Virus record (IMG/VR): IMGVR_UViG_2537561944_000042
Source: a virus
Lineage: Duplodnaviria > Heunggongvirae > Uroviricota > Caudoviricetes
Length of the DNA stretch: 57,168 nucleotides
Reading direction: 5' to 3' (one strand)
Of this stretch, positions 14,035 through 15,734 are shown piece after piece. A program made the translations under genes and the position numbers. Below the pieces are notes generated by a model. The model was not told the DNA's origin, did not search any database, and was given only the letters and a program-made list of their open reading frames with translations. Numbering within the stretch: the stretch's first letter is position 1; each line of letters opens with the position of its first letter.

Positions 14035-15252
14035 TTATATAGCTGGTGACTCTTTTCGAAGAGCATCAAGGTAGTCAGCGTACCATTGCATCATTTCTCG
14101 TCTTCCTTCAAGGTAACGAGCATGGTTGTATGTACCACGAATGCTGTTTTTGTCCGTATGTGCAAGTTGCATTTCAATCCATGCACTATTGAATCCTTGC
14201 TCGTGTAGAACAGTACTCATTGTATGACGAAATCCATGCCCGGTAGCTTTTTTGTCATAGCCAATCTTCTTCAAAACCATATTGACGCTTGCATCGCTGA
14301 TAGGCCTGTTAACATCATTTCTTCCGGCAAAGATGTATCTGTATCTTCCAGTCAGTTCTTTGAGGATTTGCAGAGACTGGATTGCCTGATCTGACAGAGG
14401 GACGATATGCTCCTTCCTCATTTTCATCCGGGTCGGAGGAACTTCCCATATCTTTTGGGTAAAATCGATCTCACACCATTCCCCCATACGTAATTCTACT
14501 GTTCTCAGCCCTGTGAGCATCAACAATTTTGTAGCTTCACGGGTTACAATACTGCCGGTTTAGTTTTCGAGTTTGTATAAAAACTCTGGTAGTTCAGGAG
14601 GACGCAGGAAAGGGTAATGTGTTCGCTTATAGCTTTTCATTGCTATAACCAGATCAGAAGCTGGATTGTATCGTGCCCGACCTGTAACAATGGCATACCG
14701 AAACACTTCACCACATCGTTGGCGAACTTTATTAGCTAGCTCGCAGGCTCCTCGGCTTTCGATACGCTGAAGAACTGCGAGAAGTTCAAGAGGTTCGATT
14801 TCACTAATGGGTCTGTTTCCAATGTAGGGAAACACATTATTTTTGAATGCTCTGTCGACATAATCAGCGTAGCTGGCAGACCAGCCTGAAACTTTTGCGT
14901 TGTACCACTCGGTGGCGATTGCGGCAAAAGTTCTTCCTTCGGAAAGGTTTTTCTCAAGATTTTCAGCTTTCTTGACTTCACCGGGATCTTTACCATCGGC
15001 ATGTATTTTCTTGGCTTCATCCCGACGTTTGCGAGCTTCAGCCAATGTAATAGTTGGATAGGTGCCAAATGATAGTTTCTTTTCCTTCCCCGCATAGTGG
15101 TACTTCATTCGCCAGTACTTTGAGCCGTTAGGATTGACCTGAAGGTAGAGCCCACCACCATCGGCAATCTTATAAATTTTATCTTTGGGTTTGGCTGTTT
15201 CAACTTGTCGAGCTGTCAGTGGCATCTGGGGGCCTCGCAATAGATTGACCAA
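14035..15252 (-). pseudogene. P4-type tyrosine integrase interrupted by a single in-frame TAA stop at 14560..14562
   Basis: ORFs 14560..15252 and 14035..14526 are in the same frame (1218 nt = 406 codons) and together span a full-length integrase; the 10 codons between the stop and the second ORF (TGSIVTREAT) are also open. Confidence 0.8.
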
Positions 15253-15400
15253 GATGTGCCCCTAAATAGGCCCCCAAATGTGACTTGATTTACGTTCCCC
15301 TGAGGAGAATTAAGGCGACTATTTGAGTAACATAAGTAAGGGTATGTGCTGATTATAAAGGCTTTTTGTGGGGTATGGTAGATTTCAGGAGAGGTGTGCA

Positions 15401-15415
15401 TGGTGTCCCCTGCAG
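15401..15415 (-). other. candidate att core: 15-nt copy of a tRNA-Arg (argW-like) 3' end CTGCAGGGGACACCA
   Basis: Minus-strand 15-mer matches the 3' acceptor/T-stem end of E. coli tRNA-Arg(CCU) as recalled; no complete cloverleaf; lies 149 bp upstream of the integrase pseudogene start. Confidence 0.5.
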
Positions 15416-15488
15416 ACATCTACTTAGAGTGGCAGGGGATTGATTAGAATGGTATTTTTTAGATGTGAGAAATATTTTACCCGCTATT

Positions 15489-15689
15489 TTACCCATTAGC
15501 GCGGCTTAAGAGCTTATTTTTGAATTCACAATGGTCACGATATAACCATCTTGCTCGACCGTGGATAACTTTGGCTTTAGGCAGGTCGCCGGACTTAATC
15601 CGGTCGTAGATGAAGGTTTTACCAAAGCCAGTATCAGCCATGATGAATTTCAAATCAACCAGTGAATCAGGTTGTAGTTCGTGTTGCAT
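15489..15689 (-). CDS. torI: excisionase / AlpA-family DNA-binding protein (TorI-like)
   Basis: 66-aa ORF, ATG with GGAGA RBS; winged-helix pattern typical of AlpA/Xis family; at a prophage end next to the att core; symbol from memory of KplE1 TorI. Confidence 0.65.
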   Translation of the reverse strand: MQHELQPDSLVDLKFIMADTGFGKTFIYDRIKSGDLPKAKVIHGRARWLYRDHCEFKNKLLSRANG

Positions 15690-15708
15690 GAGTGCTATCT
15701 CCGAATAG

Positions 15709-15724
15709 GGAATCGAACCTGCAA
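15709..15724 (-). other. tRNA T-arm-like fragment TTGCAGGTTCGATTCC
   Basis: 16-nt match to the T-stem/loop of tRNA-Arg (argW-like) with no adjoining acceptor or anticodon arm. Confidence 0.35.
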
Positions 15725-15734
15725 ATCAGGCAAT

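What the first reader, a model, noticed from the sequence alone, without database searches (positions are those of the whole stretch)
14035..15730. tRNA-Arg 3' end copy between the xis gene and the integrase pseudogene: tandem integration at one att site
On the minus strand the order is excisionase, then a 15-nt sequence CTGCAGGGGACACCA matching the 3' end of tRNA-Arg (argW-type, from memory), then 149 bp later a P4-type integrase. A 16-nt T-arm-like fragment (TTGCAGGTTCGATTCC) lies just upstream of the excisionase. This is the tRNA-then-integrase pattern of genomic islands. It implies the prophage right of ~15400 and the island left of it are separate elements sharing one att site.
Basis: partly seen in the sequence, partly recalled or inferred. 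Interest (0 to 1): 0.6.

Follow-up and report, generated by a model that had tools for sequence, protein, structure and literature searches.

The report
Two mobile elements stacked at argW
The short tRNA-Arg tail between the excisionase and the broken integrase is the shared attachment site where a P22-like prophage landed next to an older genomic island. This is a real but ordinary and already well-understood arrangement.

Summary
The finding is confirmed and its interpretation supported. The window is E. coli O26:H11. On the minus strand, torI (the KplE1/HK620/Sf6 excisionase, 15489-15689) is followed by the 16-bp KplE1 core CTGCAGGGGACACCAT (15400-15415). The first 15 nt of the core equal argW nt 61-75. 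Next comes a P4-type integrase pseudogene (14035-15225, TAA at codon 222).

Homology to free phages stops exactly at 15400. Homology to a strain that carries only the island stops exactly at 15415. The junction is therefore phage P arm + core + island int-proximal arm.

In strain 11368, argW and intS lie at the far end of the prophage; the window ends on the intS ATG. A third, 19-nt argW copy closes the island next to csc.

Among 5426 complete E. coli genomes:
- empty site: 1502
- phage-to-chromosome junction: 361
- argW-to-island junction: 216
- this tandem junction: 66
- reverse-order tandem junction: 13

The 16-nt T-arm fragment is real (argW nt 46-61), but it is not a local scar. It sits at the same place in the free phages HK620 and Sf6. 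As CAGGTTCGATTCC(C) it is conserved upstream of xis across diverged Enterobacterales modules. Its function is unknown.

The arrangement is ordinary and of a known kind.

The parts
1..15399 (-). Int-proximal part of an argW-integrated genomic island. It carries the integrase pseudogene, a PapB-like regulator, IS3 and IS66 elements and an HsdR-N-like gene. It continues beyond the window to Ag43, antirestriction and YeeU genes.
   Evidence: It is 99.96% collinear with island-only strain 2013C-4187 over 1-15415.
14035..15225 (-). Island P4-type tyrosine integrase pseudogene of 396 codons, 48% identical to IntS.
   Evidence: RefSeq annotates it as 'tyrosine-type recombinase/integrase, internal stop'.
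14560..14562 (-). Premature TAA at codon 222, upstream of the catalytic HxxR (aa 330) and the tyrosine.
   Evidence: The same stop is present in the island-only strain, which differs at 1 of 1191 nt.
15226..15399 (-). Island int-upstream arm (P'-type arm of the island att site).
   Evidence: In 216 genomes this sequence follows the complete argW directly, at 100% identity. It is not homologous to HK620 or Sf6.
15400..15415 (-). 16-bp att core CTGCAGGGGACACCAT. Positions 15401-15415 equal argW nt 61-75. This is a hybrid site: attR of the prophage fused to attL of the island.
   Evidence: Core sequence as published for KplE1 (PMC2951348).
15416..15488 (-). Phage P arm. It includes two GGGTAAAAT repeats (15474-15494, overlapping the torI stop) of the IntS arm-type kind.
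   Evidence: It is 95-97% identical to the attP P arm of HK620 and Sf6. HK620 annotates an attP repeat at this place. The TAAA motif of IntS arm sites is described in PMC2951348.
15489..15689 (-). torI, the recombination directionality factor (excisionase) of the KplE1/HK620/Sf6 module.
15708..15724 (-). T-arm-like block. The 16-mer equals argW nt 46-61, and the conserved unit is CAGGTTCGATTCC(C). It lies 19 nt upstream of the torI ATG.
15738..15757 (-). Intrinsic-terminator-like hairpin followed by a T run, upstream of the T-arm-like block.
15400..57168 (-). P22-like (Lederbergvirus, HK620/Sf6-type) prophage, running from torI at one end to intS at the other. An IS600 is inserted at 17239-18501.
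56011..57168 (-). intS, the prophage integrase. Its ATG is the last base triplet of the window. In 11368, argW lies 161 bp beyond it.
   Evidence: It is 98.4% identical to HK620 Int.

Best explanation
The region is the internal junction of a tandem array at the tRNA-Arg(CCU) gene argW. The steps below are marked as shown or inferred.

**How the array formed.** A genomic island with its own P4-type integrase first integrated into the 3' end of argW. It rebuilt the tRNA end and left a 19-nt copy at its far side. This structure is shown: both repeats are seen, and the island adjoins argW directly in 216 genomes. The island integrase then acquired a nonsense codon (shown). An HK620/Sf6/KplE1-type P22-like phage later used IntS to recombine its attP with the rebuilt argW end. 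In that attP the core lies between torI and intS. The event itself is inferred; the breakpoints are shown.

**Present layout.** The order is argW-core-intS...prophage...torI-core-int'...island...core-csc. The window's 15400-15415 site is therefore phage P arm + 16-bp core + island arm.

**Expected behaviour (inferred from the published KplE1 mechanism, not tested here).** IntS, TorI and IHF should be able to recombine argW-attL with this middle site. That would release the phage circle and leave argW joined directly to the island. The island itself is fixed in place, because its integrase lacks the catalytic domain and its arm has no IntS-type arm repeats.

**The T-arm-like 16-mer.** It belongs to the phage module, not to this integration history. 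It is most likely a cis-acting element in the uncharacterised torI control region that derives from, or mimics, the argW T-arm. Confidence in this last point is low.
For: - **Core identity and uniqueness:**
- **Phage breakpoint:** homology to Kapi1, Sf6 and HK620 ends at window 15400.
- **Island breakpoint:** homology to the island-only strain ends at 15415.
- **Layout in 11368:** argW-intS, then the oac-like acyltransferase, the tailspike and the remaining prophage genes through to torI, then int', the island, the 19-nt copy and csc.
- **Junction census in 5426 genomes:** tandem 66, argW-to-island 216, empty 1502, phage-to-chromosome 361, reverse-order tandem 13.
- **Integrases:** they are paralogous at 48% identity with the same three-domain architecture.
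- **Dead integrase:** the stop at codon 222 precedes HxxR and is shared with the island-only strain.
- **Module features:** they match the published KplE1 description, namely the 16-nt core, IntS arm sites with TAAA, five TorI sites with GTTCG, GATCG or GTCCG on the intS side, and int and xis at opposite prophage ends (PMC2951348, PMC3509656; sequences).
Against: - Nothing contradicts the tandem-array reading.
- The order of arrival is inferred, not proven. Precise phage excision from a tandem ancestor would also give island-only strains, and 13 genomes show that the phage can also use the distal copy.
- The intact argW and the distal repeat are outside the window. They are taken from strain 11368, which is 99.98-99.99% identical over the shared sequence.
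- Excision competence of this particular prophage was not tested, and it carries an IS600 insertion.
Confidence: 0.95

Rival explanations
1. The order of arrival was the reverse. The phage integrated into argW first, and the island later integrated into the phage's attR copy of the core. The final layout would be identical.
For: The final structure is the same under either order. The partial core copies are usable targets, because 13 genomes carry an IntS-type phage at the island's distal copy.
Against: The island-only strain carries the same nonsense allele, differing at 1 of 1191 nt. The island adjoins argW directly in 216 genomes from varied hosts and sources, against 66 with the tandem junction. 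The island is IS-ridden, while the prophage appears gene-complete. The simplest history is an old, already disabled island and a recent phage.
Confidence: 0.1
2. This is one composite element. On this reading, torI-core-int is the native, uninterrupted attP-like module of a single phage or island, rather than a junction of two elements.
For: In free HK620 and Sf6 the arrangement xis-attP-int is indeed contiguous. The island integrase is an IntS paralogue.
Against: The sequence downstream of the core is unrelated to the HK620 or Sf6 P' arm and lacks their GTTCG and GGGTAAAA sites. That same sequence follows the complete argW in 216 genomes with no phage. The prophage has its own intact intS at its other end.
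Confidence: 0.02
3. The T-arm-like 16-mer upstream of torI is the scar of a further, older integration or deletion at argW in this chromosome.
For: It is an exact 16-nt copy of argW nt 46-61. It abuts, in tRNA coordinates, the 15-mer downstream of torI.
Against: The identical sequence sits at the identical position in the free phages HK620 and Sf6 and in 683R2. The block recurs upstream of xis in diverged modules from Serratia, Pantoea, Edwardsiella, Erwinia phage Midgardsormr38 and others. In those the flanks are unrelated, and sometimes there are two tandem copies.
Confidence: 0.02
4. The tRNA-like matches are chance.
For: Both matches are short, at 15 and 16 nt.
Against: Expected counts are 0.02 and 0.05 even with two mismatches allowed. 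The 15-mer lies exactly on two independent homology breakpoints.
Confidence: 0.01

Closest known systems
KplE1 (CPS-53) / HK620 / Sf6 recombination module (IntS, TorI, argW; Panis, Ansaldi and co-workers)
   Same: It has the same 16-nt core and a TorI that matches the solved TorI structure (PDB 1Z4H) over its full length. IntS is 98% identical to HK620 Int. The P arm carries GGGTAAAAT repeats, and the TorI GTTCG sites lie on the intS side. int and xis end up at opposite prophage ends, and the integrase follows the tRNA in the same orientation (PMC2951348, PMC3509656).
   Different: Here the attR partner arm is not chromosomal DNA but the int-proximal arm of another argW island. The prophage is full length, unlike the 10-kb KplE1 remnant.
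P4-type-integrase genomic islands at tRNA genes (CP4-like islands with Ag43, antirestriction and YeeU/YeeV genes)
   Same: A P4-architecture integrase lies directly downstream of the tRNA. The island is flanked by direct repeats of the tRNA 3' end (15-16 nt and 19 nt). It has typical CP4-type cargo and IS load.
   Different: The integrase is a pseudogene. The tRNA-proximal repeat is now separated from the tRNA by a 42-kb prophage.
Tandem prophage and integrative-element arrays in Shiga-toxin-producing E. coli genomes
   Same: Two elements lie head to tail at one attachment site with a repeated core. This has been described repeatedly for O26, O121 and CC119 genomes (PMC5592225, PMC8767318, PMC10132054). 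argW-dsdCXA is a known hypervariable locus (Moritz and Welch 2006, cited in PMC3032704).
   Different: Nothing in kind. This instance pairs a phage with an island whose integrases are only 48% identical yet use the same core.
Lambda int-xis-attP
   Same: A heterobivalent tyrosine integrase works with a small winged-helix RDF and IHF.
   Different: In lambda, attP lies downstream of int, so int and xis stay together in the prophage. Here attP lies between xis and int, which is why a tandem junction mimics an attP-like xis-att-int order.

Membership tests
KplE1/HK620/Sf6-type recombination module | 16-nt core CTGCAGGGGACACCAT identical to the argW 3' end | tested here: met
   Present at window 15400-15415, with an exact match to argW nt 61-75 plus T. 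Core as given in PMC2951348.
KplE1/HK620/Sf6-type recombination module | TorI-type RDF gene next to the attR-side core | tested here: met
   The ORF at 15489-15689 matches PDB 1Z4H over its full length with E=6.6e-43. RefSeq names it torI. The ATG-to-core distance is 274 nt, as in HK620 and Sf6.
KplE1/HK620/Sf6-type recombination module | IntS-type integrase at the other prophage end, directly after argW in the same orientation | tested here: met
   intS lies at 56011-57168 and is 98.4% identical to HK620 Int. In 11368, argW ends 161 bp before it. argW itself is outside the window.
KplE1/HK620/Sf6-type recombination module | IntS arm-type repeats (TAAA motif) and five TorI sites (GTTCG/GATCG/GTCCG) on the arms | tested here: met
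   The sequences are present: GGGTAAAAT twice at 15474-15494. GTTCG-type sites lie at +7, +27, +70, +80 and +90 after the core in the 11368 attL. Protein binding was not tested.
P4-type integrase tRNA island | Integrase with Arm-DNA-bind_3, Phage_int_M and Phage_integrase domains next to the tRNA 3' end | tested here: met
   The integrase follows argW directly in 216 genomes.
P4-type integrase tRNA island | Direct repeats of the tRNA 3' end at both island ends | tested here: met
   The proximal core is at 15400-15415. The distal 19-nt copy is at NC_013361 3331541-3331559, outside the window.
P4-type integrase tRNA island | Functional (intact) integrase | tested here: not met
   A TAA at codon 222 lies ahead of HxxR at aa 330.
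tRNA gene or pseudogene | Cloverleaf detectable by a tRNA model | tested here: not met
   ARAGORN finds 0 genes in the window. Rfam gives no tRNA match at E<=10 in 15200-15900.
Tandem array at one att site | Three or more core copies in direct order, and strains that carry each element alone or neither | tested here: met
   Three copies are present in 11368. Junction census: 1502 empty, 361 phage-to-chromosome, 216 argW-to-island, 66 and 13 for the two tandem orders.
TorI operator (candidate reading of the T-arm-like block) | Fit to the TorI site consensus YA-GTTCG-C derived from 38 arm sites | tested here: inconclusive
   The block shares GTTCG. However, it has G at -1 (3 of 38 sites), A at -2 (2 of 38) and A at +5 (0 of 38).

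The most novel reading that the evidence does not exclude
The block CAGGTTCGATTCC(C) just upstream of torI may be a conserved functional copy of the target tRNA's T-arm. Its role could be a DNA operator or a 5'-leader element controlling excisionase expression, or a module-boundary recombination sequence. Together with the core it brackets the xis gene inside a split copy of argW nt 46-75. This would mean the phage re-uses part of its integration target as a regulatory or exchange signal. The torI promoter region is described as uncharacterised in PMC2951348.
Probability: 0.3. Interest if true: 0.4.

Novelty: already known. Interest (0 to 1): 0.2.

Why it matters
For annotation, the result sets the exact boundary at 15400-15415 between a probably inducible P22-like prophage and an immobilised island. 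It explains why an 'attP-like' xis-att-int order appears inside a chromosome. It also shows that two integrases only 48% identical share one 16-19-nt target, and that either flanking copy can receive a phage. None of this changes current understanding of site-specific recombination. The only open point is the conserved T-arm-like block in the uncharacterised torI control region.

Tried and rejected
- **Scar reading of the T-arm 16-mer.** Rejected, because the 16-mer is in the free phages HK620 and Sf6.
- **RNA-structure reading of the block.** MFE folds of nine orthologous leaders give unrelated pairings. Rfam shows nothing above noise, only sub-threshold STnc130, STnc420 and isrK hits.
- **Sigma-70 promoter scan upstream of torI.** No consensus site was found; only the terminator was detected.
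- **HK620's annotated 'cII box / pI promoter'.** It reads TTGC-N5-TTGC here and is not conserved in other genera, so it was not adopted.
- **TorI-operator reading.** Weakened by comparison with 38 arm sites.
- **IntS core-type half-site reading.** attP carries an inverted repeat, GATGTC and GACACC, around TGCAGGG, and the block matches this only as the weaker tRNA-side version. Phages also integrate at the distal copy, which lacks the T-arm. This reading is judged unlikely.
- **First IMG/VR scan.** It returned only loci with an identical TorI and so gave no diverged modules to compare. A second scan with a diverged alignment was needed.
- **Papers not held.** Ogura 2009 (the O26 genome paper) and Menouni 2013 (termination control of torI) could not be read. 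Anything about them rests on memory only and was not used as evidence.

Full report
**1. What is in the sequence**

On the minus strand of 14035-15760 the order is as follows:
- an intrinsic-terminator-like hairpin (15757-15738);
- TTGCAGGTTCGATTCC (15724-15709);
- a 66-codon ORF (15689-15489);
- CTGCAGGGGACACCA (15415-15401);
- an integrase reading frame (15225-14035) with one in-frame TAA (14562-14560).

Each oligomer occurs once in the 57-kb window. Shuffled expectations are 0.02 and 0.05, even with two mismatches allowed. ARAGORN finds no tRNA in the window. Rfam finds no tRNA-like match at E<=10 around the site.

**2. Source and context**

The window is E. coli O26:H11. It is 99.98-99.99% identical to strain 11368 (NC_013361.1), apart from two IS differences.

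In 11368 the region reads as follows:
- yfdC;
- tRNA-Arg(CCU) = argW;
- intS, starting 161 bp after the tRNA;
- an acyltransferase and a tailspike;
- a complete set of P22-like virion, lysis, nin, replication, immunity and early-left genes;
- torI;
- an integrase with an internal stop;
- a PapB-like regulator, IS3 and IS66 elements, an HsdR-N-like gene, Ag43, antirestriction and YeeU genes;
- cscBKAR and dsdA.

The window ends exactly on the intS ATG, so argW itself lies just outside it.

**3. The tRNA matches are exact**

Against the real argW, the 15-mer is nt 61-75 and the 16-mer is nt 46-61. With the following T, the 15-mer is the 16-nt duplicated core published for KplE1/CPS-53 (PMC2951348). 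A third copy, 19 nt long (nt 57-75), lies after the YeeU gene at the far end of the island in 11368.

**4. The breakpoints**

- The free phages Kapi1, Sf6, HK620, HK633 and others match the torI side at 95-97.5%. Every alignment stops at window 15400 (alignment).
- Strain 2013C-4187 has argW followed directly by the same integrase pseudogene and island. It matches window 1-15415 at 99.96% and then diverges.
- The two homologies overlap only in the 16-bp core.

Laying the sites side by side shows the following:
- attP of HK620 and Sf6 = phage P arm + core + phage P' arm;
- argW-attL in 11368 = tRNA + core + phage P' arm;
- the window site = phage P arm + core + island arm;
- the distal island site = island arm + core + chromosomal flank.

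The same chromosomal flank follows torI-core in the GenBank 'phage' record vB_EcoP-683R2, which carries host csc genes.

**5. The proteins**

- The 66-aa protein matches PDB 1Z4H, 'Tor inhibition protein', over its full length. It also falls in the PHROG family of excisionases.
- IntS in the window is 98.4% identical to HK620 Int.
- The island integrase is 48% identical to IntS over its full length. Both have Arm-DNA-bind_3, Phage_int_M and Phage_integrase domains.
- The island integrase stops at codon 222, before HxxR at aa 330 and the catalytic tyrosine. The island-only strain has the same stop and differs at 1 of 1191 nt.

**6. Population test**

I built 140-nt junction queries and counted genomes in which at least 80% of the query aligned, which requires both sides of the junction. 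Among 5426 complete E. coli genomes the counts were:
- empty site (argW + chromosomal flank): 1502;
- phage P arm + core + chromosomal flank: 361;
- argW + core + island arm: 216 (full 676-nt version);
- phage P arm + core + island arm, the window's state: 66;
- the opposite order, island distal arm + core + phage P' arm/intS: 13. This was verified in strain S1-NGR-02-A, where the YeeU gene is followed by the att site and intS.

The counts overlap. The 13 reverse-order genomes also contribute to the 361 and 216 classes. Genomes with other flanks or other elements at argW are not counted.

Every state predicted for two independent elements using one core exists, and both core copies flanking the island can receive a phage.

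Junctions of xis + core + an unrelated P4-type integrase also occur in Escherichia sp. E1V33, Tatumella, Pantoea stewartii, Edwardsiella piscicida and Erwinia tracheiphila. Stacking at argW is therefore recurrent.

**7. Mechanism**

The published KplE1 work describes a module in which attP lies between the RDF gene and the integrase gene. After integration, intS sits by attL next to argW and torI sits by attR. IntS binds arm sites that contain TAAA. TorI binds five GTTCG-type sites on the intS side. IHF also participates (PMC2951348, PMC3509656).

The sequence features are all present here or in the 11368 attL. In attP and in the window site, an inverted pair GATGTC / GACACC flanks TGCAGGG. 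I read this as the core-type sites around a 7-bp overlap. That is my inference, not a tested result.

The following are inferred from the KplE1 model:
- IntS + TorI + IHF can recombine attL with the window site to release the phage.
- The island cannot move by itself.
- IntS is unlikely to move the island, because the island arm lacks the GGGTAAAA and GTTCG sites.

The island most likely arrived first (confidence about 0.85). It is widespread, IS-ridden, and carries the same dead integrase allele with or without the phage. The opposite order cannot be excluded from structure alone.

**8. The T-arm-like fragment**

It is not a scar of this locus. The identical 16-mer lies 19 nt upstream of the xis ATG in free HK620 and Sf6. 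HK620's authors annotated that stretch as a putative cII box and integration promoter.

In 21 loci from other Enterobacterales genomes and about 25 diverged IMG/VR contigs, the block CAGGTTCGATTCC(C) recurs at the same distance from the xis start. Its flanks are otherwise unalignable. It sometimes occurs as two tandem copies 16-17 nt apart, for example in Erwinia phage Midgardsormr38. Some modules lack it altogether.

Among E. coli prophage contigs with an identical TorI, variants inside the block are all singletons, while flank variants reach 7-17 copies. This pattern argues for selection on the block.

I tested four readings:
- **TorI operator.** The block shares GTTCG, but it departs from the YA-GTTCG-C consensus of 38 arm sites at three flanking positions.
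- **Conserved RNA hairpin or SD-sequestering fold.** The predicted folds are inconsistent across orthologues.
- **Sigma-70 promoter.** None was detected.
- **IntS core half-site.** Judged unlikely.

The torI promoter is called 'non-characterized' in PMC2951348. The function of the block remains unexplained. My best guess, at low confidence, is a cis element of torI control, or a module-boundary sequence, derived from the argW T-arm.

**9. Comparison and verdict**

This is a textbook tandem array at a tRNA hotspot. It involves the well-studied KplE1/HK620/Sf6 module and a decayed P4-type island. Tandem prophages and integrative elements are routinely reported in STEC genomes (PMC5592225, PMC8767318, PMC10132054). 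The argW-dsdCXA interval is a known variable locus (PMC3032704).

Novelty is 'already known' and interest is low. The conserved T-arm-like block is a small unexplained side lead.

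Noticed in passing
window 15708-15724; also L007 about 1990-2020, L016, L019, L022, L023, L129, L133: The block CAGGTTCGATTCC(C), a copy of argW T-arm nt 49-61, is invariant upstream of xis in many diverged Enterobacterales modules while its flanks differ. Some modules have two tandem copies and some have none. Homology of distant phages such as Midgardsormr38 and Salmonella g341c to the window begins exactly at this block.
   Followed up: partly
window 17239-18501: A 1263-bp IS600 is inserted at the start of the DUF551 gene in the prophage early-left region. 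It is absent from strain 11368 but present at this spot in other O26 genomes.
   Followed up: yes
window 8942-11302: The 786-aa HsdR-N-terminal-domain protein is intact here and in strain 2013C-4187. In strain 11368 it is split by a 1.3-kb IS3-family insertion.
   Followed up: partly
window 15360-15399 versus L003 6561-6600: The first 40 nt or so of the island arm after the core resemble the native chromosomal flank after argW, for example a shared GAAATCTACC. BLAST therefore ran the 683R2 alignment 36 nt past the core. The island attP may carry extended similarity to attB.
   Followed up: no
L137 (NZ_CP145679.1 3309065-3309204): Thirteen complete genomes carry the reverse stacking order, argW-island-core-intS-prophage. 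An IntS-type phage can therefore use the 19-nt distal copy, which lacks the rest of the tRNA.
   Followed up: yes
L013, L020, L023, L024, L031: An xis-core junction followed by a different P4-type integrase (35-73% identical to the island integrase) occurs in Escherichia sp., Tatumella, Pantoea stewartii, Edwardsiella piscicida and Erwinia tracheiphila. Stacking at argW recurs across genera.
   Followed up: partly
L006 (ON470594.1, phage vB_EcoP-683R2): This GenBank 'complete phage genome' contains host cscB and cscK after torI-core. It is therefore a prophage region with a chromosomal flank rather than a packaged genome.
   Followed up: no
all xis loci: The distance from the xis ATG to the core is 274 nt in nearly every module, from E. 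coli to Edwardsiella and Erwinia phages, despite about 25% sequence divergence. TorI-type sites sit at fixed offsets of +7, +27, +70, +80 and +90 after the core.
   Followed up: partly
L015, L030: Metagenome bins labelled Actinomycetes and Parachlamydiaceae carry an enterobacterial-type torI module at 85-92% identity. These contigs are probably mis-binned.
   Followed up: no
window 15639-15794: Rfam gives sub-threshold similarities to the enterobacterial sRNAs STnc130 (plus strand, 24 bits against a cutoff of 55), and STnc420 and isrK (minus strand) around the terminator upstream of torI. These are likely noise or shared prophage terminator sequence.
   Followed up: no
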